64,000 nucleotides of DNA from an uncultured Pseudomonadales bacterium (GCA_964457085.1 CAYWDM010000001.1:111690-175689); one strand, 5' to 3'. Positions 21,725 to 53,379 are shown, numbered from the stretch's first letter. Numbers and translations are program-made. The notes: generated by a model from the sequence alone, not told the origin.

Positions 21725-24568
21725 TTACACAACGAGCAATAGCTTGGGTTCGTCACCAATGAGTAGTTTGGTGAAGGTTTTTTTCTCGATTTCGCTCTGC
21801 CAGCTTGTTGGCCAACTCTGCAATTGCATTGTTGCAACCTGTCCAACTTTCAAGCCTGCTTGTTTCCTCAGGTTTTGGATTTGGCGCATGATGTCCCGGG
21901 CTTCACCTTCAGCTTTTAGCTCGTCGGTCAAAACTGTATCAAAAACAGGTTCTACTTCCACTTCAGCAATTTTCCAAAATACCTGCTTCACATTGAGTTC
22001 TGACGCAATCACACCTGAAAGTGTATCTGCCATAGTTAGTGCTGTTGAAACAGTAAATGTCACCGATGCTAATGGTTGTCTGACTTTGACACCAGCTTCT
22101 TTGCGTTTTGCATGTGCAGATTCAACTAATTTTCGTACCAACACCATTTCACTATTTAGTACCTCATCAACTTGTGCACTCGCATATGTTGGCCAGTCAG
22201 TTAGGTGAATGGAGCTCTGTGCATCTACCATGGTGTGGTGAACCAACTCTGCAAAAAATGGTGCTACCGGTGCAAACATTTGAGCTAATGTGTAGAGTGC
22301 ATACCCAAAAGTTTGACTTGTTTCTGTTTGAGTTTGATCTTTAATTCGCTCTCGACTCAACCGCAAATACCATGTCGAAATCATATCTACAAATTCCATC
22401 AAGGATCTGCAAGCACGAATCACATCATAGCCATCCATATACTTGGTGACATCTCGAACCAATGTCTCTGTCGCACTGAGCAACCACTGATCCATAATGT
22501 TGGTAACTTTTTCTGGTTTTGTGAATCCAACTTCATGGTTTGCAAAAGTTTGATAGAAACCAAGCACATTCCACCAAATTACAAATACTTTGCGACGGAG
22601 ATCTGAAACTTCTTTTTCCGAAAAATTTAGATTCTCAGATTTCATCACCGTCGAACTCATCAGATATAGTCGCAAACTATCGACACCATATTTATTAATT
22701 AAGACCATAGGGTCGGGATAGTTTTTCTTAGACTTGCTCATTTTTGAACCATCTTCGGCGAGGATGGTCCCGGTGGTTAAAACATTTTCAAATGAAGGTT
22801 TCACAAAAATTCCCACTGAAAGTACATGCATGGTGTAAAACCAAGCTCGAGTTTGAGCTATGTACTCACTCACAAATTGTGCAGGGTAGTTTCGCTCAAA
22901 CAACTCTTTGTTTTCGAACGGATAATGCTGTGCTGCAAATGGCATTGAGCCAGATTCAACCCAACAATCAAAAACCTCGCTGGTACGTTTACCCTTGACG
23001 GTTTTAGCTTCATCAACCCAAACCTCGATTTCATCTAAAAATTCACGGTGGATATCTGTTAATTCGTTGACCAGTTTTGGCTCAACAGCCCACTGAGCAA
23101 GTTCCTTGCGAGAACTGATAACTCGTAGCAATTCAACACCATCGTTATTGGTGCCTCTCCAAATTGGCATTGGGGTACCCCAATACCGTGATCGTGAAAT
23201 ATTCCAGTCAGGTGCATTCTCCAAACCCTTCAAGAAACGGCCATGTTTGAGATGTTTTGGATACCAATTAACGTTTTCATTTTGAGCAATTAATTCACTG
23301 CGTAGTTTAGAGACATTGATAAACCAAGCTGGTAATGGTGCAAAATACAAACGAGTATTACAGCGATAGCAAGCAGGCACGCTATGCGTATGTGGTTTTT
23401 CAGAATACATCAAACCACGAGCCGCTAAATCCGCATTGACCAATGGATTGGTTTTTAAAATGTACATTCCAGCCCATGGAGTTACTTCACTACGTATTTT
23501 TCCTTCACTGTCTACATGCTCAACCAATTGCACATGCTCACGCTGCATTACCCGGTAGTCATCTTCGCCATATACAGCTAAAGTGACGATTCCCGTACCT
23601 TCTTCTGCAGTTACAAACTCATCAGCAATAACCACCCCAATTTTCTCTCCCTTACTGCGATCTGGATACCAATCATAGTGTGGCTCGAATTGCCATGCTG
23701 CCAAATCAGTTCCTGAATATCTCTCGACTATCTCATATGGCAACTCACCGAGCATTGCCAGTGTAGTTTCAGCTAAGACATAAAACTCATCTTGCTGGGA
23801 AACTTTCACATATGTCAAAGTGGGATTAACCGCCAGTGCAGGTGTCGCTAATTTATTCCATGGTGTGGTTGACCATGCTAATAAATAGGTTTTTTCCTGA
23901 CCAACAACTTTATATTTATAGGTATTTGCTGGTTCAGTTACCGTTTGGTAACTGTTATCCATGGCGATCTCAAAGTTTGAAAGTGGAGTAGCACATCGTG
24001 GACAGTACAAGATTACTTTTCGACCCTCATATATCAGTCCCTTGTTGTAGAGTTGGGCAAAGCCCCACCAAACAGATTCCATATAGGGAGCATCCATAGT
24101 CTTATAGCTATGTTCGAAGTCAACCCAGCGACCCAACCGGCCAATGATTTTTTCCCATTCGCTGTCTAAACGAAGCACTTCAGTTCGACAAGCTTGATTA
24201 AATTTGTCGATGCCAAGTGCTTCAATACCTTTTTTGCCACCTTTAATGTCGAGGTTTTTCTCGATCATATTCTCGATTGGCAAACCATGACAATCCCAGC
24301 CCCAAACACGCTCAACTCTTTTACCTCTCATGGTTTGGTAGCGAGGAATGACATCTTTTGTGGTCGATGCAAGCAAGTGACCATAATGTGGCATGCCAGT
24401 TGCAAATGGAGGGCCGTCATAAAAAACGTAGCTATTTTTGCTGTTTTTTGATTCGACAGATTTTTTAAAAGTACCGTCTTGTTGCCAAAACTGCTGTGTT
24501 TGCTCTTCCAACTCCGGAAGATTTGGTGGAGTAGAGAAGTTAAGTTGTTTTTTCATATTTTTTTCCAA
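21725..24568 (-). CDS. ileS: Isoleucyl-tRNA synthetase
   Basis: PHYGHLL (HIGH), WGWDCHGLPIE (IleRS-specific) and KMSKSKKN motifs; 947 aa. Confidence 0.9.
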   Translation of the reverse strand: MEKNMKKQLNFSTPPNLPELEEQTQQFWQQDGTFKKSVESKNSKNSYVFYDGPPFATGMPHYGHLLASTTKDVIPRYQTMRGKRVERVWGWDCHGLPIENMIEKNLDIKGGKKGIEALGIDKFNQACRTEVLRLDSEWEKIIGRLGRWVDFEHSYKTMDAPYMESVWWGFAQLYNKGLIYEGRKVILYCPRCATPLSNFEIAMDNSYQTVTEPANTYKYKVVGQEKTYLLAWSTTPWNKLATPALAVNPTLTYVKVSQQDEFYVLAETTLAMLGELPYEIVERYSGTDLAAWQFEPHYDWYPDRSKGEKIGVVIADEFVTAEEGTGIVTLAVYGEDDYRVMQREHVQLVEHVDSEGKIRSEVTPWAGMYILKTNPLVNADLAARGLMYSEKPHTHSVPACYRCNTRLYFAPLPAWFINVSKLRSELIAQNENVNWYPKHLKHGRFLKGLENAPDWNISRSRYWGTPMPIWRGTNNDGVELLRVISSRKELAQWAVEPKLVNELTDIHREFLDEIEVWVDEAKTVKGKRTSEVFDCWVESGSMPFAAQHYPFENKELFERNYPAQFVSEYIAQTRAWFYTMHVLSVGIFVKPSFENVLTTGTILAEDGSKMSKSKKNYPDPMVLINKYGVDSLRLYLMSSTVMKSENLNFSEKEVSDLRRKVFVIWWNVLGFYQTFANHEVGFTKPEKVTNIMDQWLLSATETLVRDVTKYMDGYDVIRACRSLMEFVDMISTWYLRLSRERIKDQTQTETSQTFGYALYTLAQMFAPVAPFFAELVHHTMVDAQSSIHLTDWPTYASAQVDEVLNSEMVLVRKLVESAHAKRKEAGVKVRQPLASVTFTVSTALTMADTLSGVIASELNVKQVFWKIAEVEVEPVFDTVLTDELKAEGEARDIMRQIQNLRKQAGLKVGQVATMQLQSWPTSWQSEIEKKTFTKLLIGDEPKLLLVV

Positions 24569-41786: not shown

Positions 41787-43004
41787 TTAGTAGATCGGAG
41801 TGCTGTTACGCTCCGCATAACTAATTAGCCGCTTGTGAGCAGCCAATGAGCCATCTTTCTCGCCCGTTACAGCCCAGATCTCACCATTGACTAGTGCGAT
41901 CTCAGCTTGCTGAGGGTTTGTGGTAAAGCGCTCAAACCGCCGAGTACGGGTTTGCGATACATCTACCTTTGGATAGGGAGCCATCGGTAAACCGGTGAGC
42001 ACCCACTTCGAGGTGGTACCGCTGTCCATGGTTTCATCCGTGAAAGCGGCCTCGGACGATTTCTTGTCCTTAGCAGCCAACAAAACAGACGAAACTACAG
42101 TCAACGAACGGTCTCCAAAATCCCCAGCCACTCCCAATAGTTCTGAAACATACTGGATAGAGCTGGTATAGATACCGCCTGAGATCATGCCACCTTCAGC
42201 CGCCACAACCGTGGATCGACTGTGTGCCATAACAGCACGGGTAACAGAATCGCAAATAAACACCACATCATATCCTGCTTGTGTAAGTCGACGAGCTCGC
42301 TTCACAGCAAACTCGAAAACCTGCACCTGGATATGCAATGGATCCTCACGAGGAGAAGTGAAGAATTCACCACGCTCAGGACCAACCAGATCCCAAACTT
42401 TTTTGTAATCGGTGAAGTCTTCAGATCTTTCTCCTAGATGAAGAACAATGGGATACAACTTCGCATCTTCTTTCGTAAGACGAAGCAGTGCTTCCCATAA
42501 TGCCAGCAGAACGCTGGTTTTACCACTGCCGCCTGGGGCGGCTAGGTAAATGGACTGGCCTTTGCCAATCGGGGCCAACAAAGTCAGCACCCGCAAAGAC
42601 AAATTGCCAAACTTTTCCACTCTCAAAGGACGAGTGGGATAGTTGGCCCCGAGAAATATACGCTTGTCGCGCAAATCCTCAGCCTCGCCAACGATCCGTG
42701 GCCACGCAGAGACCATTGCTGGATCTGTGCAGCCATTAACCGAGATGATGCTGTCTGGACTCTCGGAACTGAGTTCAACCAAATCGCCTTCTTCCAGATT
42801 CCACCTTAACACCACCGATGGACTAACCACCAGTGAATATTGAGGAGCATTGGGAGATTGCGCTTGGTCAATCAGATGCTGACGCCGGTGAGTTCTGAGT
42901 TTCCCCAGATTTCCCGGTATTAACGTTGTGAGTGGCGGCACGCGTTCCCCGTAAACGAGGACTGCGTTTGGATCCACTCCTTGCTGAAGCACCCATGCTT
43001 TCAA
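41787..43004 (-). CDS. Divergent Rho-family RecA-like ATPase (transcription termination factor Rho homolog)
   Basis: [31 protein letters not shown] versus Rho [40 protein letters not shown] versus [38 protein letters not shown] versus HVQVAEMVIEKAKRLVE..VIILLDSITRL. TTG start with an AGGAGGTG RBS. Higher GC than the surrounding genes. Confidence 0.65.
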   Translation of the reverse strand: [405 protein letters not shown]

Positions 43005-43219: not shown

Positions 43220-44401
43220 CTAACTTTCACGGAATGCGGGCCAGGGGTTTTCCATGGCTGGTGCATCGGTAGATGCAGGGATGACGGATTGACCATTTCT
43301 TCGATCCCAAATTCCAGGATCATCAGCTGTCAACAAGTCAATTACTTTGCCATCCTTTCCAACTTTTGCCCTTAGGGCCTCAAGATCAGCCACTTTGAAA
43401 GTGCCTGTTCTTAGGTTTCCTTGGAGCCCAACCTTGATTTTCTCTGCTTCCACAGCCAGAGCTCTAATGATTTGATTGGTCGACATGCACCAATCAACGC
43501 CACCAATGATGTTTGTGGCAAACTGCATGGCACTGGGAATGATTAGATACCCTGTGCCACTCTTCGAGTATAACAAGCGATTCCAGAGGTCCTGGAGGGC
43601 ACCAGTTCTACTCGGTCCCATGTTTTTGGTTAATCTGTCGATATCAGTTCCAGCCAATAACTCTTTGCAAGGAATTAGATCACCAAATGAAGCATCTGGA
43701 TCTTTCCCAAACAAAGTTGGCCTGACATTTATCTCCACCATAAACATGTTTGTGATTACCAACCGAGAATGCCGAGATTCCCAAGCTTTCACCCAATAGA
43801 TCAAGGGTAAAATGAAAAATGGCACTACGAAACCAACTAGAAAGTACCAGTAGTTCATTTCTGGCACCACTTCGCTGATCAACCCGGTGGTAACAATGAC
43901 ATAGAATCTATAGAGAAACTCTACAATGACGACCAATAGTCCGAAGACAAAGCCGGCACCAACAGCAGCCAGACTGGATGAGAACGTTACCCAACCAGCT
44001 GTTGCCATCAAATTCTTGTCAATGACAAGTTGGAGCTTTTCTCCTTCCTGCATAACCCAAGGCATAGAGCTTGGGAGCCACAGAAAATCAAAAACTTTGG
44101 AGATTAGAGGCTCTACTACCCGAACTATCCAGGCAATCAGAAACCAGAAAATCACCAATCCTACCACCGTCCAACCAATAGCTAGTAGGATCCTTACGAT
44201 GTTTTCCACACGTACCTCCTTTGTGGGTGGTACTCCTCTTACTTCCATACTCGCGAGAGTTGGGGAGCAGATGAAGCACCATGAATGAAGTGGATTGACA
44301 CCGGTATCCTTCAAGAGGACACCGTCGGCCGTTCTGCTCCCTTTTTCGGAGCTAGGGCTTTGTCTCATTGTTTTTTTGTCACTGCATGTCATGGTTGACA
44401 T
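43220..44401 (-). CDS. Polytopic membrane protein (hypothetical)
   Basis: Four TM helices then a ~200 aa soluble domain. The first 40 codons lie inside the 446-bp repeat and are identical to those of the ORF at 46192-48261. The true start may be an internal Met (MEVRGVPP). Confidence 0.45.
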   Translation of the reverse strand: MSTMTCSDKKTMRQSPSSEKGSRTADGVLLKDTGVNPLHSWCFICSPTLASMEVRGVPPTKEVRVENIVRILLAIGWTVVGLVIFWFLIAWIVRVVEPLISKVFDFLWLPSSMPWVMQEGEKLQLVIDKNLMATAGWVTFSSSLAAVGAGFVFGLLVVIVEFLYRFYVIVTTGLISEVVPEMNYWYFLVGFVVPFFILPLIYWVKAWESRHSRLVITNMFMVEINVRPTLFGKDPDASFGDLIPCKELLAGTDIDRLTKNMGPSRTGALQDLWNRLLYSKSGTGYLIIPSAMQFATNIIGGVDWCMSTNQIIRALAVEAEKIKVGLQGNLRTGTFKVADLEALRAKVGKDGKVIDLLTADDPGIWDRRNGQSVIPASTDAPAMENPWPAFRES

Positions 44402-44727
44402 GTCTTGAGAAACAGTGACACAGAGCCCTAGCTATATATCTGAAAAAGAAGAGTGGAGAAACAAACCAAAAAAGAAGTTATCAGTTTTTTTATTTTAATA
44501 AAAACATCTTTGTTTTTATATATCTCTCTTGTTGTGTTGTTAAAGATCTACCAAGCAAAACAGTTGAGAACTATACGCAAACAGAGACGCAGTGTGATTT
44601 GTGTTATACAGATCACGGTCTCTGTTGCACCTCTCAACCGATTATATTTACTTGGTCACTGTTTCGACTTCGAGAAGTCTCATCAGGTCTAGGCAAAACC
44701 TAGACGACAGTGCACAACAAGAGAGTG
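44282..44727. repeat. 446-bp direct repeat, copy 1 (100% identical to 48142-48587)
   Basis: Verified block by block. Contains a hammerhead ribozyme, an AT-rich putative promoter, nested hairpins around a start codon, and 40 shared codons. Confidence 0.9.
44657..44712 (-). ncRNA. Type III hammerhead ribozyme (copy 1)
   Basis: Minus-strand RNA 5'-CACUGUC|GUCUAGG-UUUUG-CCUAGAC-CUGAUGA-GACUUCUCGAAGUC-GAAA-CAGUG-3'. Closed stem I (7 bp), complete CUGAUGA core, stem II closed by G10.1-C11.1, GAAA, and a 6-bp stem III with a GUC cleavage triplet. Confidence 0.8.
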
Positions 44728-44767
44728 TTGCTTGGACGGAGGGAGAAGAGCACAATGCCCAACTCCC

Positions 44768-46189
44768 TCACGGTCCAATCAACGCCGGTGCCGCACTAGT
44801 CGGTACCGTTTCAAAGATGAGTAAATCACCAGATTCTGACCACTTTGCAGTGATCTCATGGTCAGTAGTATTCTCAATCACTAAATCCGCACTCTGACAA
44901 TTTATGCCCACCGTGAAGATAGGATAAAATGGATAGAAAGTGTGAGAAGGAGCTTTGGCTACTACAAGACCTGGTACTTGGCTTGCCCAGTTTTTGATGA
45001 CTGAAGCATTGGCACAAATACCACCAGCACTGATGTTTGCCGCGAATTTATATTGATCCCAGCCGGTCTCGTTCGTCTGTTGACAGAACGACCAAGTGCC
45101 ATTGGCTGGAACTACTATTGTCTGGTTTAAAGTTGACCAAAGCGCTACGTTATAGGCTTGGCCATCTGCAACCGGGACATCGCGGGTGAGATTGATTGTC
45201 AATTGCCCTGAACCAGGTACGAGTGTACCTCCAGGTAGACCAGCAGCTGCATTACCAGCTTCGGCCTGCCAATTCTCTGGCAAGAGACCCATCTCTTGGA
45301 AAAACTGAATGCTTGCTGACTGGAAAAATGCATATTCTCCAGGAGAACCAAATGATAGGCTGGTCTGGACATCAAAACCGCCCAAACCTCGACCGGCATA
45401 AATATCAGCCGTCGCTACCAACTGACGTCGGTAGGGCTCATCGTGGTTCCACCCATAAAGAACCTTCACTCTTTCCTCTACAGTCATGTCAGAGCGATAA
45501 CCCATGCGATTTACTTCATAGGCCATTGCAAAAAACATGACTTTCTGGTCCCAGAAGTCACAAGATTTGACAACCGGGTCAGTTGAGGTTTGAAGCGCCA
45601 CCTTACAGATTCGCCAAGCAGTGGTGGGAATAAACCCACCAGCACCAAGCTCACCTGCAGACGCGTGCCCCAACCAATCTGAATAATCTGACTTGATGTA
45701 TTGAGCTGCCACTGGGTTATGAGCCCGAATGTCCTGCTCTTTCCATAAAGCCAATAACTCCAGGCCAGCTTCCTTTTCTTTAGCAGCTATGAGGTTTGTG
45801 TTCCCCATTGCTGATGCAAGACCAGGCGAGCTACCCAGATTTGTTCCGCCTGCACTTTCGCCGCTATGGAGAGACTGCAAAATGGCGAGGTCAAGCTGAC
45901 CTTTCCACTGAGCGTTCACCCATGTGATTGCGGCTTGAGCGTCAGCCACAGCTGTCGGATCAAGTCCGATCGCCTTTACCGTCACCTCGTCGGTGGCAGA
46001 GAGCGAGTAGGAGAGTTCCGACCGAACCCCGAGGATCTGAGCCATCATGCGCTCATAACCCTCGGGGTTGGTATCATGTTGGTACAACAGGTAGACGAAT
46101 CCACCCATCGGAACAACACAGCTGACGACTGTGGCCACCACGATCGCAAGCAAGATGAGTTTTTTTGATAAGTTACGATGTCGCCTCAC
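44768..46189 (-). CDS. Membrane-anchored cell-wall-active protein with a lytic-transglycosylase-like region and a C-terminal VanW-like domain
   Basis: N-terminal TM helix. SGESAGG...AGELGAGGFIPTTAW resembles the SLT ES / AGAxGLMQ motifs. The C-terminus GGICANASVIKNWASQVPGLVV...YPFYP..G.DL.IEN resembles the VanW domain. Confidence 0.45.
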   Translation of the reverse strand: MRRHRNLSKKLILLAIVVATVVSCVVPMGGFVYLLYQHDTNPEGYERMMAQILGVRSELSYSLSATDEVTVKAIGLDPTAVADAQAAITWVNAQWKGQLDLAILQSLHSGESAGGTNLGSSPGLASAMGNTNLIAAKEKEAGLELLALWKEQDIRAHNPVAAQYIKSDYSDWLGHASAGELGAGGFIPTTAWRICKVALQTSTDPVVKSCDFWDQKVMFFAMAYEVNRMGYRSDMTVEERVKVLYGWNHDEPYRRQLVATADIYAGRGLGGFDVQTSLSFGSPGEYAFFQSASIQFFQEMGLLPENWQAEAGNAAAGLPGGTLVPGSGQLTINLTRDVPVADGQAYNVALWSTLNQTIVVPANGTWSFCQQTNETGWDQYKFAANISAGGICANASVIKNWASQVPGLVVAKAPSHTFYPFYPIFTVGINCQSADLVIENTTDHEITAKWSESGDLLIFETVPTSAAPALIGP

Positions 46190-46191
46190 GG

Positions 46192-48261
46192 CTAATCGCT
46201 CCTACCTAAACTCTCTACCAACACAGCTGGCAGGTGAACCTGCAAATGTGCGAGTAATTCTTGCTCGGATTCGGCTTTCCCAAATCGTCTAGGATCGTAC
46301 ACGTCAGCCATTTGATGGCCATCGTTTCCCAAACGAACGAGAATACTGCAAGACTCTACGAAACCGGCTGGGAAGTCTTTCACCAGCTCTTCCACCGAGT
46401 GAACGGTGAAATAGATATGTTGCCGATCCTTACGGACCGTATCTACAGCTTCGCGCATCTTGAGACGCGCACGTGCACCCAGTTGAGGACCGGTTTGGCC
46501 CAAAAATGAGTCTGCTGCTGATGGAAAACTCACCATGTCATCGAAAACGACATGGATTGTCCTACCACTCTCAACAGTCCACAAAGCCCACGCCTGAGTT
46601 AGTGCCTCGTAAAAGGCAAGAACCCAATTGTAGTACCGTAGGCTGTTGACCTTAGGTCTAATTGCAAGTGGCAACCAGCTTTCACCAGTTGTTCTCCACT
46701 TTTCTGCCAGTTTCCTGACAAAATCTTGAGCCTTTGCCGAATCCTTACGGAACAGCTCCTGTTCAAGATCAATGGCAGTTCTGTCGCCCTCTCCCTGATT
46801 GACATCAGGAAGATCTATTTCAACGACTTGACCACCAAAGGCTTTCGACCATTTATGACTCCCCTCCTTATCAGCGCTTTTCAACTGAACAAATACAACG
46901 TCAGCTGATTGCTGCAACATATAGAATGCTGCAAGCGTTGATTTTCCCGTCCCAGATGGACCCTCGAAAATCGTTGAGGGATACCTGGAGGCGTTCAAGA
47001 AAAAGGGTTGCTCCGGTTTTGCCAATTTACCGATCATGGCATAACCGAATGAGTGAGCTGTCTTCGGGGAGACAGATTCAGCGAGTTTGGCAAGTAGCTT
47101 CTCCGGCTTTTTAAGCAGGAAAGGTTTCCAAGCAGGTGGGGGTTGGTGACCTACCATGAAGCCAAAGTGAGCCTCACGGACTGCATTCCCAGTCAACCGC
47201 TCCCAACCTGGACCAATCAAGTCAAGCCTATCTTGAAGTGAATCAAGATTTGTTTGACCATTACTCGCAACCGCACTTTCTGCTCGAATAACTAACCGAA
47301 CATAAGCACGATTTTCAACTCTTTCGAGATGAAGCAGCACGTCAACATTGAGTGCCAATAGCTCATCGAGCTGGCGCTGCAATTCTGAGAGCTGTTTTTC
47401 AGGGTCTTTTTCCAGAGTTGCTATCACCCCAGTCCAAAACCCTAGCGCCTTACTACCTAGAAGCACATCGCTCATTCGCCAGCGGATAGCCAGCGGTGCA
47501 GCAATTAACTCGGGTTGTAAGGTGCCTGTGTACGTCATCGAAGACAGGTCAGCGTTATTTCTGCCATACTGACTTCGATTAAGCGTTGCCCGGACGAAGT
47601 TTCCTGATTCATGGTACGAAACCAGGTGACCTTCCGCAAAACGGCGCTGCTTATCTAAATGACGGCGAATGTTCAACCATGGTGCCCAAAGAACCAATTC
47701 TCTACCAAAAGGTTTTGAACCGGTGGGCACAGCCCATTCACTGACAGAAGCCAGGAATTCGGCGTATGGTTGGATCGCCTGCTTGCGTAGTTGCGCCTGG
47801 CGCAACATCTCCTTAAACGTCCCAGTGTCTTTCGGCACAGCACGAAAAAGAAGAGTAAACTCAGGCAACAATCTTGTCAGCTGCGCCAGATCAGGAACAC
47901 CACGGTTAAAATACACCGCCGCATTCCATCCCTTTTGAGCCTCATGACTGTCACTAACGTACCTACGGGAAAATCCCGCAGCGCCACCATCCAATGATGC
48001 TATCTGAAGATCGATCATTTGTCTTGATTCGACCAACTGATTTCTCACTGGTACTGGCAATTGAGAACCTAACGTGGCCACAGTACCTCCTTGTGGGGGT
48101 ACCTCGTCTCGCTCCTTTTGAGGGGAACAAAACAAAGTACCTGAATGAAGTGGATTGACACCGGTATCCTTCAAGAGGACACCGTCGGCCGTTCTGCTCC
48201 CTTTTTCGGAGCTAGGGCTTTGTCTCATTGTTTTTTTGTCACTGCATGTCATGGTTGACAT
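46192..48261 (-). CDS. P-loop NTPase, VirB4/TraC(ConE)-like ATPase candidate
   Basis: Walker A IFEGPSGTGKSTLAAF in the C-terminal half. Walker B-like HVVFDDM ~130 aa later. 689 aa. The first 40 codons are shared with the 43220-44401 ORF through the repeat. The true start may be internal. Confidence 0.45.
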   Translation of the reverse strand: MSTMTCSDKKTMRQSPSSEKGSRTADGVLLKDTGVNPLHSGTLFCSPQKERDEVPPQGGTVATLGSQLPVPVRNQLVESRQMIDLQIASLDGGAAGFSRRYVSDSHEAQKGWNAAVYFNRGVPDLAQLTRLLPEFTLLFRAVPKDTGTFKEMLRQAQLRKQAIQPYAEFLASVSEWAVPTGSKPFGRELVLWAPWLNIRRHLDKQRRFAEGHLVSYHESGNFVRATLNRSQYGRNNADLSSMTYTGTLQPELIAAPLAIRWRMSDVLLGSKALGFWTGVIATLEKDPEKQLSELQRQLDELLALNVDVLLHLERVENRAYVRLVIRAESAVASNGQTNLDSLQDRLDLIGPGWERLTGNAVREAHFGFMVGHQPPPAWKPFLLKKPEKLLAKLAESVSPKTAHSFGYAMIGKLAKPEQPFFLNASRYPSTIFEGPSGTGKSTLAAFYMLQQSADVVFVQLKSADKEGSHKWSKAFGGQVVEIDLPDVNQGEGDRTAIDLEQELFRKDSAKAQDFVRKLAEKWRTTGESWLPLAIRPKVNSLRYYNWVLAFYEALTQAWALWTVESGRTIHVVFDDMVSFPSAADSFLGQTGPQLGARARLKMREAVDTVRKDRQHIYFTVHSVEELVKDFPAGFVESCSILVRLGNDGHQMADVYDPRRFGKAESEQELLAHLQVHLPAVLVESLGRSD

Positions 48262-48587
48262 GTCTTGAGAAACAGTGACACAGAGCCCTAGCTATATATC
48301 TGAAAAAGAAGAGTGGAGAAACAAACCAAAAAAGAAGTTATCAGTTTTTTTATTTTAATAAAAACATCTTTGTTTTTATATATCTCTCTTGTTGTGTTGT
48401 TAAAGATCTACCAAGCAAAACAGTTGAGAACTATACGCAAACAGAGACGCAGTGTGATTTGTGTTATACAGATCACGGTCTCTGTTGCACCTCTCAACCG
48501 ATTATATTTACTTGGTCACTGTTTCGACTTCGAGAAGTCTCATCAGGTCTAGGCAAAACCTAGACGACAGTGCACAACAAGAGAGTG
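48142..48587. repeat. 446-bp direct repeat, copy 2
   Basis: Identical to 44282-44727 and offset by 3860 bp. Confidence 0.9.
48517..48572 (-). ncRNA. Type III hammerhead ribozyme (copy 2)
   Basis: Identical 56-nt sequence to copy 1. Confidence 0.8.
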
Positions 48588-48625
48588 AGAGAAGGTGGGC
48601 ATCTTACGACGCCCACCTCTTCACA
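48588..48625 (-). terminator. Terminator-like hairpin downstream of the 99-aa gene
   Basis: GGTGGGC..(10 nt)..GCCCACC followed on the minus strand by uucucuc. Confidence 0.4.
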
Positions 48626-50546: not shown

Positions 50547-50571
50547 GTTTACTCCTTATTTCTGAATGGTT

Positions 50572-50664
50572 GAATGGATTGACGATTGGAACAACGACGG
50601 GCGTCTTGCGACGCCGTGAGGATGCCCCATCTAGGGGCGGACAATTTGTGCGATATGCACCTCC
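50572..50664 (-). promoter_or_regulatory. Conserved structured 5' leader, copy A
   Basis: Minus-sense GGAGGUGCAUAUCGCAC..CCCCUAGAUGGGG..GGCGUCGCAAGACGCC (GNRA-like loop), then RBS and ATG. ~85% identical to copy B. Confidence 0.45.
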
Positions 50665-50950
50665 GTTAAGGATGGGATGTAGTGCAACGAACAGCTTTGC
50701 CCTTTTTTTGGGCTTGGGCCTAATAAACACTCATAAAAAAATAAGCGCTCATTGAGCCCAAGCCACGACAACCAACAGCTATATAAGAAGTTTAGTAAAT
50801 TCTCTTGTTGTGCTGTTAATGAGCAAGGCGACAAGTAACCTATTACAATAACAAGTTCTTATCGAAATACCCAGGCCAAATATGGCCAGATAACAACACA
50901 ATTATGCGGTTATCCAGCAATACTTTAAAAAGTAGGGGAATGAGTATTCA

Positions 50951-51468: not shown

Positions 51469-51493
51469 GACTGATACTCCTTCTAACTTGAAT

Positions 51494-51584
51494 GAATGGA
51501 TTGACAACGAGCAACGACGGGCGCCTTATGACGCCGTGAGGGTACCCCATCTAGGGGCGGACAATTTGTGCGATATGCACCTCC
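51494..51584 (-). promoter_or_regulatory. Conserved structured 5' leader, copy B
   Basis: Same three-hairpin arrangement as copy A, with a compensatory U-A to U-G change in the third stem. Confidence 0.45.
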
Positions 51585-52082
51585 AAAAAAAACAGAATGT
51601 AATACGGGCATGCTCTTTTTTTGAGCTGGGGCCAAAGCTACTAACAGGTATGACTATTAACAGCTTTGACCTCAGCTCTTATACTCATTCCCCTGTTAAG
51701 GTGCGAAACGACAAAAAAATTGCAACGCAAATGCTGCAAATATTTATATCGTTTTGCTATCAAATCTAAACAAAAAGTATCCTATATATATCAGTAGAAA
51801 AACATTACAGGACGTGTTATACATCTTCAATATGTAAAAGTCAATATACTTTGATAGAGTTCAACTCGATAAAAAATACAAAAAAACCTTCTCCCTCTTG
51901 CGAGAGAGCAGGCGATGCCACAAATGGAACGATATTTTGGCAGTCTGTTGAGCGGCATTCTGACAAACGCATTCACTTCAGTTCATCTCGAATTCTCGAT
52001 CAACCTTGTCAACAAATAACAAACAACTATGAGTTTTTACTCCAGACACAATTGCATTAGAAAAACTAATCCATACCTGAAT

Positions 52083-52445: not shown

Positions 52446-52607
52446 AACTATTCCTTAATTAACAAAAATAAAATCTATCTACTCATATCTTACCAGATTA
52501 AAAAAACTAACTACAAGTCTGGTGAAAAGTAGTGAATAGATTAATATAGTATTGTTAAAGCCGTAGTTATTCTAACAAACGAGCACTATGTATCGATGTA
52601 TACTAAT

Positions 52608-52776
52608 ACTACCTTCGGGGTAGGTTGATCTTGCGTAACCGCGAGAAAATACCAATCGGTGGTACACTCCACGAGTCTTGCTTGCGAGACATGATCTGGT
52701 GAAACTCCAGAAGCGACCGTATAGTCGGGTATAAAGAAGGTACTCAAAAAACCACGCTATTTTGCGTGGTGTTTTG
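52608..52776 (+). promoter_or_regulatory. FMN riboswitch (RFN element) with intrinsic terminator
   Basis: P1 UACCUUC/GAAGGUA. 5' UUCGGGGUAGGUUGA..ACCG..CGGUGGUA and 3' UGGUGAAACUCCAGAAGCGACCGUAUAGUCGGGUAUAAAGAAGG, closely matching RFN UGGUGAAAUUCCAAAGCCGACAGUGAAAGUCUGGAUGGGAGAAGG. Terminator CCACGC/GCGTGG + UUUU at 52752-52776. CCCCGAAG at 52782-89 is complementary to the P1 5' strand, and GGGGCAU pairs across the SD. Confidence 0.75.
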
Positions 52777-52812: not shown

Positions 52813-53379
52813 TTGATGAAATTTTTAAATAGTTTCTCTAATCGGGATATCGCACTTTCCGCTGCATTAGCAGCTGTTTCAGCTGTTCTCCAATTCGTTC
52901 ATATTGGCTACCAGTCGCCACAGTGGGGAATGTGGATTGACGTGGTTGCAGTTTCCTGGGTGATTGCGTATTTCTTATTGGGAACTCGAGCTTCGCTACT
53001 GGTCACACTCACCGGCTCACTCATCATCACACTTTTTGCACCCGACACCTGGCTTGGTGCCTCGATGAAATTAGTGGCAACACTCCCGATACTTTTCTCA
53101 TTATTTATCTGGAAAAAAATCAAAAATACTGGCTACTCGAACCCTAGAAATCTCGCAGTCCCTGTCATAGCAGGCATGATTATTCGCTGCGCAGTAGTAC
53201 TTCCTGCAAATTACTACTACGCAATTCCCATCTGGACTGGACTAACCCCAGCTCAAGCTATAGCAGCCATCCCCTGGATGGCCATCGCCGGATTTAATAT
53301 TGTCCAAAGTATTTTAGATGTCGCACTTGCTTGGATAGTGGTCTATCGATTCAAGGTAATTAGATTTAAACAAGGCTAA
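52813..53379 (+). CDS. ribU: ECF-transporter S component, riboflavin-type (RibU-like)
   Basis: 188 aa, 5-6 TM helices, directly downstream of the FMN riboswitch, followed by ecfA and ecfT. Confidence 0.6.
   Translation: MMKFLNSFSNRDIALSAALAAVSAVLQFVHIGYQSPQWGMWIDVVAVSWVIAYFLLGTRASLLVTLTGSLIITLFAPDTWLGASMKLVATLPILFSLFIWKKIKNTGYSNPRNLAVPVIAGMIIRCAVVLPANYYYAIPIWTGLTPAQAIAAIPWMAIAGFNIVQSILDVALAWIVVYRFKVIRFKQG

What the first reader, a model, noticed from the sequence alone, without database searches (positions are those of the whole stretch)
44282..48587. Twin, sequence-identical type III hammerhead ribozymes inside 446-bp perfect direct repeats, bracketing a 3.86-kb two-gene unit
Each repeat (44282-44727 and 48142-48587, 100% identical) encodes on the minus strand a complete minimal hammerhead: CACUGUC|GUCUAGG-UUUUG-CCUAGAC-CUGAUGA-GACUUCUCGAAGUC-GAAA-CAGUG. 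It has a closed 7-bp stem I, the full CUGAUGA/GAAA core, the G10.1-C11.1 pair, a 6-bp stem III and the canonical GUC cleavage triplet. Two same-orientation ribozymes exactly 3860 nt apart lie 5' of the VirB4-like ATPase and 5' of the next membrane-protein gene. Self-cleavage at both would release a defined 3860-nt RNA carrying the VirB4-like and hydrolase genes, with 5'-OH and 2',3'-cyclic-phosphate ends. The same geometry gives circularisable RNAs in retrozymes (established for eukaryotic retrozymes; inference here). At minimum, cleavage would cut the read-through polycistronic transcript into mRNAs with 5'-OH ends. Hammerheads within bacterial T4SS-like operons are, as far as I know, undescribed.
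Basis: partly seen in the sequence, partly recalled or inferred. Interest (0 to 1): 0.9.

Follow-up and report, generated by a model that had tools for sequence, protein, structure and literature searches.

The report
Twin hammerhead ribozymes punctuating an operon
Two identical copies of a small self-cutting RNA (a hammerhead ribozyme) sit in duplicated leader sequences in front of two gene blocks of a rare bacterial gene cluster, and most likely cut the long operon transcript into separate messages; this layout is already known from other bacteria, and here it is conserved and preserved unusually cleanly.

Summary
The segments 44282-44727 and 48142-48587 are 100% identical direct repeats 3860 nt apart. 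Each encodes on the minus strand a complete type III hammerhead (HH), with predicted cleavage at 44706|44705 and 48566|48565.

Rfam RF00008 scores it only 30.7 bits (gathering 48.5), but comparative evidence supports a real ribozyme. Three to four diverged relatives (ATPase 48-65% identical) carry an HH at both equivalent intergenic sites. The catalytic core is invariant and compensatory changes occur in all three stems.

The HH is nested in a larger structured leader. A 13-bp helix (P1) stacks on stem III and also encloses a long hairpin. More distant relatives have the P1 domain without an HH.

In three lineages the two HH-plus-leader units (426-469 bp) are identical within the genome, which points to gene conversion.

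Best explanation: ribozyme punctuation of a polycistronic mRNA, giving each downstream block a defined 5'-OH leader. Hammerheads flanking gene blocks in bacteria were described in 2011, so this is not a new kind of arrangement.

The circular-RNA idea fits the geometry but is untested. "VirB4-like" is unsupported: only a P-loop is detectable. I class it as a new member of a known kind, of moderate interest.

The parts
48142..48587 (-). Repeat copy C: the HH-plus-leader unit upstream of the P-loop ATPase gene
   Evidence: 100% identical to 44282-44727. The equivalent units in relatives are 469 bp (L002) and 426 bp (L004, L005), also identical within each genome.
44282..44727 (-). Repeat copy D: the HH-plus-leader unit upstream of the 329-aa membrane-protein gene
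48517..48572 (-). Type III hammerhead, copy C. Predicted cleavage between C17 (48566) and G1.1 (48565).
   Evidence: Custom covariance model R1 scores 70.5 bits. The sequence is identical to copy D.
44657..44712 (-). Type III hammerhead, copy D. Predicted cleavage between C17 (44706) and G1.1 (44705).
44713..44725 (-). P1 5' strand, CUCUCUUGUUGUG, directly abutting stem III (copy D). The copy C equivalent is 48573-48585.
   Evidence: RNAalifold predicts a 13-14 bp helix, with one C-G to A-U compensatory pair among close relatives. L012 and L013 carry CUUUCUUGUUGUG / CACAACAAGAAAG.
44524..44536 (-). P1 3' strand, CACAACAAGAGAG. It lies inside the invariant CA-rich motif CUUUAACAACACAACAAGAGA (44524-44545). 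The copy C equivalent is 48384-48396.
   Evidence: A third, HH-less copy of the motif lies at 50801-50818.
44550..44656 (-). Long imperfect hairpin between stem III and the P1 3' strand, forming the third arm of the junction. The copy C equivalent is 48410-48516.
   Evidence: The sequence varies among lineages, but a hairpin is kept at this position.
44210..44523 (-). Remainder of the structured leader: an A/U-rich tract, the GGGCU...AGCCC hairpin, the CUCCGAAAAAGGGAG hairpin, a UCAAUCCAYUUCAUUCA tract and the Shine-Dalgarno sequence AAGGAGG. The start codon is GTG at 44209-44207.
   Evidence: z-score -9.0 for the whole leader.
46192..48081 (-). The likely start is GTG 48081, not the upstream ATGs that lie inside the leader.
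   Evidence: Only 3 homologues were found in a database of 5.8 billion proteins.
44768..46189 (-). 473-aa protein. Its N-terminal domain is shared with proteins that carry SLT_2 (L012, weak hit) and Peptidase_M23 (L012, L013) domains in distant relatives, so a cell-wall hydrolase role is plausible.
43220..44209 (-). 329-aa membrane-protein gene served by leader copy D
41787..43004 (-). Rho/FliI-like RecA-fold ATPase, the last gene of the cluster
48594..48617 (-). GC-rich hairpin after the 99-aa gene, immediately upstream of copy C. It may protect the 3' end or act as a weak terminator. An equivalent hairpin follows the 473-aa gene at about 44745-44775.
50547..50930 (-). HH-less paralogous leader B, upstream of the 82-aa gene. 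It shares the CA-rich motif and downstream modules. Leader A lies at about 51469-51760.

Best explanation
The cluster of about 8 genes on the minus strand (about 51.5 to 41.8 kb) is transcribed at least partly as read-through polycistronic RNA.

Two of its four paralogous structured 5' leaders begin with a type III hammerhead. The hammerhead is nested in a three-way junction formed by the 13-bp P1 helix, hammerhead stem III and a long hairpin.

Self-cleavage after GUC would sever the transcript just downstream of the preceding gene's GC hairpin. This would have two products:
- The upstream mRNA would end in a 2',3'-cyclic phosphate close to a protective hairpin.
- The downstream mRNA (ATPase plus 473-aa gene, or membrane protein plus Rho-like ATPase) would start with a defined 5'-OH end followed by a standard leader. 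This is a natural counterpart of the synthetic RiboJ insulator.

Cleavage also separates the two strands of P1. Once the 5' fragment is lost, the invariant CA-rich motif becomes single-stranded.

The perfect identity of the two units within a genome is most simply explained by gene conversion between paralogous leaders. The tracts end where homology ends, at the flanking coding sequences.

Shown here: the motif, its fold, its conservation and covariation, the twin arrangement in relatives, and the within-genome identity. Inferred: actual cleavage in vivo, co-transcription of the genes, and the effects on mRNA stability and translation.
For: 1. The full catalytic core, three helices and GUC/GUA cleavage site are present.
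2. Homologous clusters in independent assemblies carry a hammerhead at both equivalent gaps: L002, L004 and L005. L008 has one, and L001 has two halves at its contig ends.
3. Compensatory changes occur in every stem among the four lineages: stem I 1.2-2.2 U-A to C-G; stem II 10.2-11.2 A-U to G-C; stem III A-U to G-C and C-G to U-A. The 13 core positions are invariant.
4. Across 13 hammerheads, 94.9% of cells are paired, 8 pairs show changes on both sides, 0 of 500 shuffles reach the observed value, and slid controls reach at most 41%.
5. P1 plus the HH fold is the minimum-free-energy structure of the whole leader (z-score -9.0) and the RNAalifold consensus.
6. All genes lie on the same strand with short or overlapping junctions inside the blocks, and long gaps occur only at the leaders.
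7. There is precedent. Clustered hammerheads flanking genes or gene blocks cleave in vitro and in E. coli (PMC3088659). A second natural example found here has 10 hammerheads, one per intergenic gap (L009).
8. Only two hammerheads exist in the 64-kb window, both at these leaders.
9. In the 3' cleavage product folded alone, the CA-rich motif is largely unpaired.
Against: - There are no expression or cleavage data.
- RF00008 scores below its gathering threshold.
- No conserved loop I-loop II tertiary contact is evident, so activity at physiological Mg2+ is uncertain.
- The contiguous 19-20 bp formed by P1 plus stem III would hold the products together after cleavage and could favour re-ligation.
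- A promoter-like arrangement overlaps the CA-rich motif: TTTAAC-N17/18-A/T-rich in the window clade, and TTGACA-N18-TATAAG in L013. If it is a real promoter, most downstream mRNA would start 3' of the hammerhead. The ribozyme would then act only on read-through RNA.
- More distant relatives manage without a hammerhead.
Confidence: 0.6

Rival explanations
1. Excision and circularisation. Cleavage at both hammerheads would release a 3860-nt RNA. Its 3' end carries the P1 5' strand plus the stem III 5' strand. That end would re-pair with the RNA's own 5' end, rebuild a hammerhead, and be ligated by the reverse reaction or by an RtcB-type ligase. The result would be a circular bicistronic mRNA.
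For: - The geometry is right: same-strand identical hammerheads, so a hybrid hammerhead made from the two ends equals the native one.
- 19-20 bp of pairing (P1 plus stem III) are available to hold the ends together.
- The twin arrangement, with unit lengths of 3701-3860 nt, is conserved.
- Within-genome identity of the two copies would keep the ends compatible.
Against: - No data exist for any circle.
- The same P1 and stem III pairing exists in cis at each copy and forms first during transcription.
- Perreault et al. looked for circular or spliced products from analogous bacterial arrangements and detected none.
- Identity extends about 250-400 nt beyond what end-pairing needs, up to the start codon. 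That fits gene conversion of a leader better.
- In the L001 lineage the assembly pattern suggests the two copies differ outside a roughly 30-nt core.
- No ligase gene was seen, although only part of the window was annotated.
Confidence: 0.1
2. The repeats matter mainly at the DNA level. As 446-bp direct repeats, they would be substrates for homologous recombination that deletes or amplifies the ATPase plus 473-aa block, as a form of on/off or copy-number variation. The hammerhead would be incidental cargo of the leader.
For: - L008 joins the 100-aa gene, through one leader, directly to the membrane-protein gene, with no ATPase or 473-aa block.
- L010 and L011 have a hybrid leader (5' part of type A, 3' part of type D) and lack six genes.
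- Perfect within-genome identity shows that recombination between the copies is frequent.
Against: - L008 may be an assembly collapse across a repeat.
- Recombination explains the identity of the copies. It does not explain the conserved catalytic core and compensatory stem changes of the hammerhead.
- The full cluster is retained in several diverged lineages.
Confidence: 0.12
3. The hammerhead is a catalytically dead or very slow relic. The functional element would be the P1 three-way-junction domain, for example an RNase III processing site or a terminator/attenuator. That domain also exists without a hammerhead in distant relatives.
For: - P1 plus two hairpins is present in L012 and L013 with no hammerhead or other known ribozyme.
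- The Rfam score is below threshold.
- No obvious tertiary loop-loop contact is present.
Against: - All 13 core nucleotides, the A15.1-U16.1 pair and an allowed H17 (C or A) are invariant across lineages whose surrounding leader is only about 67% identical.
- Compensatory substitutions preserve all three stems.
- A relic would decay in the core first.
Confidence: 0.1
4. The repeat is an artefact of assembly, or the hammerhead match is a chance occurrence.
For: Perfect 446-bp repeats can arise from mis-assembly.
Against: - The same twin architecture appears in independent assemblies from different samples and lineages. Short-read contigs break exactly k-1 bases into the repeats.
- The custom-model E-value is about 1e-20, and the motif is found nowhere else in the window.
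Confidence: 0.02

Closest known systems
Clustered hammerhead ribozymes flanking genes or short gene blocks in bacterial (mostly prophage) genomes (Perreault et al. 2011, PMC3088659)
   Same: - Several same-strand hammerheads lie in intergenic gaps of one transcription unit.
- Their proposed role is cutting long transcripts into gene- or operon-length mRNAs.
- Cleavage was shown there in vitro and in E. coli for three such arrangements.
   Different: - The context here is not detectably phage: PHROGs gives no meaningful hits, and the cluster is embedded among core chromosomal genes and syntenic in relatives.
- Each hammerhead is part of a duplicated 426-469-bp leader that is kept identical within a genome.
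- Stem III is extended by a conserved 13-bp helix in a three-way junction.
Rfam Hammerhead_3 (RF00008), the type III hammerheads of viroids, plant satellite RNAs and others
   Same: - Topology: stem III open, stems I and II capped.
- Full CUGANGA / GAAA core.
- GUC cleavage site.
   Different: - The score is 30.7 bits against a gathering score of 48.5.
- Stem I is a compact 7-8 bp with no internal loop.
- The sequence is encoded in a bacterial chromosome rather than in a replicating RNA.
Retrozymes (eukaryotic non-autonomous retroelements giving circular RNAs)
   Same: Direct repeats of a few hundred bp, each with a type III hammerhead, bracket a unit that double cleavage would release with ends that could be ligated.
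   Different: - The unit here encodes two conserved proteins.
- It is single-copy and syntenic across lineages.
- It shows no sign of mobility or of a reverse transcriptase partner.
- It is bacterial.
RiboJ-type ribozyme insulators (synthetic biology; sTRSV hammerhead plus hairpin placed 5' of a ribosome-binding site; my own knowledge, mentioned in PMC7536230)
   Same: A type III hammerhead removes variable upstream RNA, so the downstream message starts with a fixed, structured leader.
   Different: RiboJ is engineered. Here the arrangement is natural, the leader is about 485 nt long, and the cleaved-off strand stays base-paired through P1.

Membership tests
Hammerhead ribozyme, type III | Conserved catalytic core: C3 U4 G5 A6 N7 G8 A9, G12 A13 A14, the A15.1-U16.1 pair, and H17 (not G) 5' of the scissile bond | tested here: met
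   The window has CUGAUGA ... GAAA with GUC. Relatives have CUGAAGA or CUGAUGA with GUC or GUA. All core positions are invariant.
Hammerhead ribozyme, type III | Three helices radiating from the core, with helices I and II hairpin-capped and helix III open | tested here: met
   The minimum-free-energy fold, the fold in the full-leader context and the RNAalifold consensus all give this structure.
Hammerhead ribozyme, type III | Helices supported by covariation among homologues | tested here: met
   Compensatory changes occur in stems I, II and III among 4 lineages. Across 13 sequences, 94.9% of cells are paired, 8 pairs change on both sides, and 0 of 500 shuffles reach the observed value.
Hammerhead ribozyme, type III | Score at or above the Rfam RF00008 gathering threshold | tested here: not met
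   30.7 bits against 48.5. Ten unambiguous hammerheads in L009 also fail at the gathering score, so the model under-covers this compact bacterial class.
Hammerhead ribozyme, type III | Site-specific self-cleavage that yields 2',3'-cyclic phosphate and 5'-OH ends | not testable with these tools
   This needs in vitro transcription or end-specific RNA sequencing.
Hammerhead ribozyme, type III | Tertiary contact between loop/stem I and loop/stem II, which gives fast cleavage at low Mg2+ | tested here: inconclusive
   Loop II (CUCG or CUCA) and the adjacent pairs are conserved. Loop I varies (UUUUG, GAAA, AUUU). No pseudoknot or receptor could be assigned.
Clustered hammerheads punctuating bacterial transcription units (Perreault 2011) | Two or more same-strand hammerheads in intergenic gaps flanking a gene or short gene block | tested here: met
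   There are two hammerheads 3860 nt apart bracketing two genes. The same holds in L002, L004 and L005.
Clustered hammerheads punctuating bacterial transcription units (Perreault 2011) | Prophage or mobile-element context (typical for the family, but not strictly defining) | tested here: not met
   PHROGs gave one weak hit of unknown function among 8 proteins. The neighbours are the dcw cluster, tRNA synthetases, and the rpsF-ssb-rpsR genes (ribosomal proteins S6 and S18 with SSB).
Retrozyme | A non-coding unit between hammerhead-bearing repeats, dispersed multi-copy distribution, target-site duplications, and circular RNA | tested here: not met
   The unit encodes two conserved proteins. Each locus has a single unit, syntenic in relatives. 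One exact-match scan of metagenome contigs with the 21-nt CA-rich motif found a single contig. Circularity is not testable here.
VirB4 / type IV secretion ATPase | A significant match to VirB4-family models (CagE_TrbE_VirB, AAA_10, TraC-type) or to solved VirB4 structures | tested here: not met
   Only generic P-loop hits appear, with E>=5e-5, all below their cut-offs. NCBIfam gives none. The PDB profile search gives nothing below E=0.25. The AlphaFold model has pLDDT 45.6, too poor for a fold search.

The most novel reading that the evidence does not exclude
The twin ribozymes, together with the P1 clamp, may do more than cut. Two readings are not excluded:

(a) They could release a 3.7-3.9-kb RNA whose ends are held in a rebuilt hammerhead and ligated. 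This would give a circular, exonuclease-resistant bicistronic mRNA in a bacterium.

(b) Cleavage could act as a switch that unmasks the invariant CA-rich, G-poor motif (UUUAACAACACAACAAGAGA). That motif could then be recognised by the Rho-like ATPase encoded at the end of the same cluster. Ribozyme cleavage would thereby be coupled to cluster-specific control of transcription or mRNA fate.

Either reading would give a bacterial hammerhead a defined regulatory role.
Probability: 0.1. Interest if true: 0.9.

Novelty: new member of a known kind. Interest (0 to 1): 0.5.

Why it matters
The biological role of most bacterial hammerheads is still unknown. This locus offers a clean comparative case for four reasons.
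- The ribozyme sits in a conserved chromosomal operon rather than in a prophage.
- It occurs at two paralogous positions that are kept identical within each genome.
- It lies inside a larger structured leader.
- Sister lineages have the same leader domain without the ribozyme.

The locus therefore allows a direct comparison of ribozyme-based and ribozyme-free solutions to the same mRNA-processing problem. It may also show a hammerhead arising within, or replacing, a hairpin arm of a pre-existing junction.

It also shows that the Rfam RF00008 gathering threshold misses a class of compact bacterial type III hammerheads. Twelve clear examples across two unrelated lineages fell below it.

Tried and rejected
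- Rfam at the gathering score on the window and on all loci found no hammerhead. A 5-kb search at E<=10 returned only miRNA-like noise from the leader hairpin.
- A protein-pattern scan of GTDB genomes with the ATPase alignment found nothing. The window's lineage therefore seems absent from the species representatives, and I could not establish the taxon. Literature look-ups of the accessions were also uninformative.
- A profile re-search of the 5.8-billion-protein database added no ATPase homologues.
- The hammerhead pattern was absent from viral contigs.
- The AlphaFold model of the ATPase was too poor to use, so I ran no fold search.
- Rfam searches of the homologous gaps in L012 and L013, aimed at other ribozyme classes, found nothing.
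- A third hammerhead-like regex match near 22663 (minus strand) lies inside the Ile-tRNA synthetase gene, lacks proper stems and is not found by the custom model. I rejected it as chance.
- The sigma-70 scan gave no convincing promoter in the leaders: the best was 9 of 12 matches inside the long hairpin, and the region had fewer hits than shuffles.
- I considered the idea that P1 is a pair of terminal inverted repeats of a miniature mobile element. I rejected it because the 3' strand is part of a motif also present in HH-less leaders and the unit is not dispersed.

Full report
OBSERVATION

The two segments 44282-44727 and 48142-48587 are exactly identical: 446 bp, start-to-start spacing 3860. 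Identity falls to background immediately outside them.

On the minus strand each copy reads CACUGUC|GUCUAGG-UUUUG-CCUAGAC-CUGAUGA-GACUU-CUCG-AAGUC-GAAA-CAGUG. This is a textbook type III hammerhead:
- Helix III is open, with 6 bp including A15.1-U16.1.
- Helix I has 7-8 bp.
- Helix II has 5 bp, with G10.1-C11.1 and a tetraloop.
- The full CUGANGA/GAAA core is present, and the cleavage site is GUC.

The isolated 71-nt segment folds into the hammerhead as its minimum-free-energy structure. So does the same segment inside the 536-nt leader.

RFAM

RF00008 does not reach its gathering score. It is invisible in the whole-window and 5-kb searches and scores 30.7 bits (gathering 48.5; E=2.5e-5) when a 111-nt slice is searched. 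The criterion is too strict, however. An unrelated Dehalococcoidia locus found during this work (L009) has ten obvious hammerheads of the same compact type, and none of them is reported at the gathering score either.

COMPARATIVE EVIDENCE

The 629-aa ATPase downstream of copy C has only three homologues among 5.8 billion proteins: 65%, 49% and 48% identity. Their contigs (L001-L007) show the same gene order:
- a protein of about 81 aa, one of about 456 aa and one of about 100 aa;
- a gap of about 500 bp;
- the ATPase and a protein of about 478 aa;
- a second gap of about 480 bp;
- a membrane protein of about 330 aa and an ATPase of about 396 aa with an ATP-synt_ab domain.

In L002, L004 and L005 the two gaps are again 100% identical to each other within each genome, over 469, 426 and 426 bp. 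Each gap contains a hammerhead. Short-read contigs L003 and L006 end 25-30 bases into the repeats, as a k=31 assembler would produce. This rules out an assembly artefact particular to the window.

Among the four distinct sequences (window, L008, L002, L004) every core nucleotide is invariant, and H17 is C or A. The stems carry compensatory changes:
- Stem I, positions 1.2-2.2: U-A, C-G or U-G.
- Stem II, positions 10.2-11.2: A-U or G-C.
- The two outer pairs of stem III: C-G, U-A or U-G, and A-U, G-C or G-U.

I combined these four with nine L009 hammerheads and counted pairs. For this count I removed one loop-I base from L008 to keep the alignment in register. The result was 94.9% of cells paired, 8 of 18 pairs with changes on both sides, and 0 of 500 shuffles reaching the observed covariation. 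Controls with the 3' partners slid by 1-3 columns reached at most 41% paired.

A covariance model built from that alignment finds exactly two hammerheads in the 64-kb window, both at the repeats (70.5 bits), and none elsewhere. I conclude that these are real hammerheads under selection. Catalysis itself is inferred.

ANATOMY OF THE REPEATED UNIT

The repeat is not simply a ribozyme. It is a complete HH-plus-5'-leader unit.

Immediately 5' of stem III lies CUCUCUUGUUGUG (44725-44713). It pairs with CACAACAAGAGAG (44536-44524) about 175 nt downstream. This gives a 13-14 bp helix, P1, that stacks on stem III and also encloses a long imperfect hairpin (44550-44656), forming a three-way junction. 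P1 shows one C-G to A-U compensatory pair between the window/L008 group and the L002/L004 group.

The P1 3' strand lies inside a 21-nt motif, CUUUAACAACACAACAAGAGA, that is invariant in all four lineages, although the leaders overall are only about 67% identical.

Downstream of P1 come:
- an A/U-rich tract;
- a GGGCU...AGCCC hairpin;
- a CUCCGAAAAAGGGAG hairpin;
- a UCAAUCCAYUUCAUUCA tract;
- a strong Shine-Dalgarno sequence and the start codon.

In L002, L004 and the L001/L008 lineage the repeat runs up to and through the start codon. In the window, perfect identity stops about 70 nt before the GTG starts at 48081 and 44209. The whole leader is strongly structured, with a z-score of -9.0.

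The cluster has two further leaders that are paralogous but lack a hammerhead. They lie upstream of the 153-166-aa gene and the 82-aa gene, share the downstream modules, and in one case share the CA-rich motif (50801-50818).

DEEPER RELATIVES

Homologues of the last gene, a Rho/FliI-like RecA-fold ATPase, led to more distant versions of the cluster: L012 at 47% identity and L013 at 39%. The orthology of their ATPase and 433-aa genes was confirmed by BLASTP: E=6e-31 and 1e-53.

These loci have no hammerhead and no other Rfam ribozyme in the equivalent gaps. They do retain P1 (CUUUCUUGUUGUG / CACAACAAGAAAG, another compensatory pair), enclosing two hairpins (z-scores -9.4 and -5.8). The leader junction domain is therefore older than the ribozyme. 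In the window's clade the hammerhead occupies the position of the first hairpin.

L010 and L011 (58% identity) lack six genes. They carry a hybrid leader whose 5' part matches leader A of L004 and whose 3' part matches leader D. This suggests a deletion by recombination between paralogous leaders, although the reverse event, an insertion, is also possible.

L008 joins the 100-aa gene, through one hammerhead leader, directly to the membrane-protein gene. This is either an assembly collapse or a real deletion of the ATPase block.

MECHANISM

All cluster genes are on one strand. Junctions are tight within blocks, and long gaps occur only at the leaders. Each hammerhead follows a GC-rich hairpin that closes the preceding gene.

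The most economical reading is ribozyme punctuation of read-through transcripts. The upstream RNA would end in a cyclic phosphate near a protective hairpin. The downstream RNA would begin with a 5'-OH end and a standard leader, much as the engineered RiboJ insulator works (my own knowledge for RiboJ).

Because the P1 5' strand lies upstream of the cut, cleavage splits P1. Folded alone, the 3' product leaves most of the CA-rich motif unpaired. That could matter for translation or for factor binding; this is inference.

Three points count against a simple picture:
- The 19-20 contiguous base pairs of P1 plus stem III would keep the products annealed and could favour re-ligation.
- A promoter may overlap the CA-rich motif. 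L013 has TTGACA-N18-TATAAG there, while the window clade has only weak matches. If it is real, the ribozyme would act only on read-through RNA.
- No tertiary loop-loop contact could be assigned.

The perfect within-genome identity of the units in three diverged lineages is best explained by gene conversion between paralogous leaders, with tracts bounded by the non-homologous coding sequences. In the L001 lineage the contig begins exactly at a 30-nt stretch of the hammerhead core shared with L008. It also spans a whole leader, which suggests that its two copies differ outside that core. Identity of the two copies is therefore common but not universal.

CIRCULAR RNA

There is no evidence for it, though. 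Identity extends far beyond what end-pairing needs. The only published test of analogous bacterial arrangements found no circular or spliced products (PMC3088659). I give it about 0.1.

COMPARISON WITH WHAT IS KNOWN

Perreault et al. 2011 reported that multiple hammerheads often flank individual genes or short gene blocks in prophage genomes. They showed cleavage for three such arrangements and proposed processing of long transcripts into shorter mRNAs.

The context here is not detectably phage. The window contains a dcw cell-division cluster, tRNA synthetases and GatA/B. In relatives the cluster sits between ychF and the rpsF-ssb-rpsR genes, which encode ribosomal proteins S6 and S18 with SSB.

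The label 'VirB4-like/T4SS' could not be verified. Only P-loop matches appear, and the structure model was unusable. The 473-aa protein shares its N-terminal domain with proteins that carry Peptidase_M23 (L012, L013) and a weak SLT_2 hit (L012) in distant relatives. A cell-wall hydrolase role, and more generally an envelope-spanning machine, is plausible but unproven. I could not determine the organism.

VERDICT

I class the finding as a new member of a known kind: hammerheads punctuating a bacterial operon. Its variant features are the P1 clamp in a three-way junction, the concerted evolution of whole HH-plus-leader units, and sister lineages that have the same domain without the ribozyme. 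Interest is 0.5.

Noticed in passing
L009 1-8000 (CAXXBX010000061.1, Dehalococcoidia MAG): This locus holds an array of ten same-strand compact type III hammerheads, one in nearly every gap between ORFs of about 150-240 aa. Several of those ORFs are paralogous. None of the hammerheads is reported by Rfam at the gathering score.
   Followed up: partly
L010 8332-8860 and L011 5982-6510, compared with L004 6565-13642: These relatives lack the six genes from the 158-aa gene through the 453-478-aa gene. They carry a hybrid leader: the 5' part matches leader A and the 3' part matches leader D. This is consistent with a roughly 7-kb deletion by recombination between paralogous leaders.
   Followed up: partly
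L008 930-1760 (WBZO01036117.1): The contig joins the 100-aa gene, through a single hammerhead leader, directly to the membrane-protein gene, skipping the ATPase and 473-aa block. It is either an assembly collapse across the repeat or a true deletion variant.
   Followed up: no
window 50589-50681 and 51509-51601 (minus-strand leaders A and B); L002 6284-6489 and 7307-7512: A second pair of repeated leader modules lies upstream of the first two genes of the cluster. The two copies are 85% identical in the window and 98% in L002, so partial homogenisation also acts on the HH-less leaders.
   Followed up: partly
window 41787-43004 (-): The last gene of the cluster encodes a Rho/FliI-like RecA-fold ATPase. 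Its best NCBIfam match is Rho, at 98 bits, far below the cut-off. The family is small, with about 11 close members. Its possible link to the CA-rich, G-poor leader motif is speculative.
   Followed up: partly
window 48082-48261 (-): The database protein for the ATPase (P0001, 678 aa) starts at an ATG inside the leader hairpin. The homologues and the Shine-Dalgarno sequence support the GTG at 48081 instead (629 aa). This is probably a start-codon mis-annotation caused by the long open leader.
   Followed up: partly
window 52607-52745 (+): An FMN riboswitch scores 70.5 bits, above the gathering score. It lies upstream of a 188-aa ORF at 52813-53379.
   Followed up: no
L010 17510-17709 (+): A glmS ribozyme scores 57.6 bits and lies upstream of the GlmS gene in a relative's genome. 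This lineage therefore also uses another self-cleaving RNA.
   Followed up: no
window about 22620-22690 (-), inside the Ile-tRNA synthetase gene: A regex search found a CUGAUGA...GAAA match with a preceding GUC. It lacks canonical stems and is not found by the custom model, so I judged it a chance match.
   Followed up: yes
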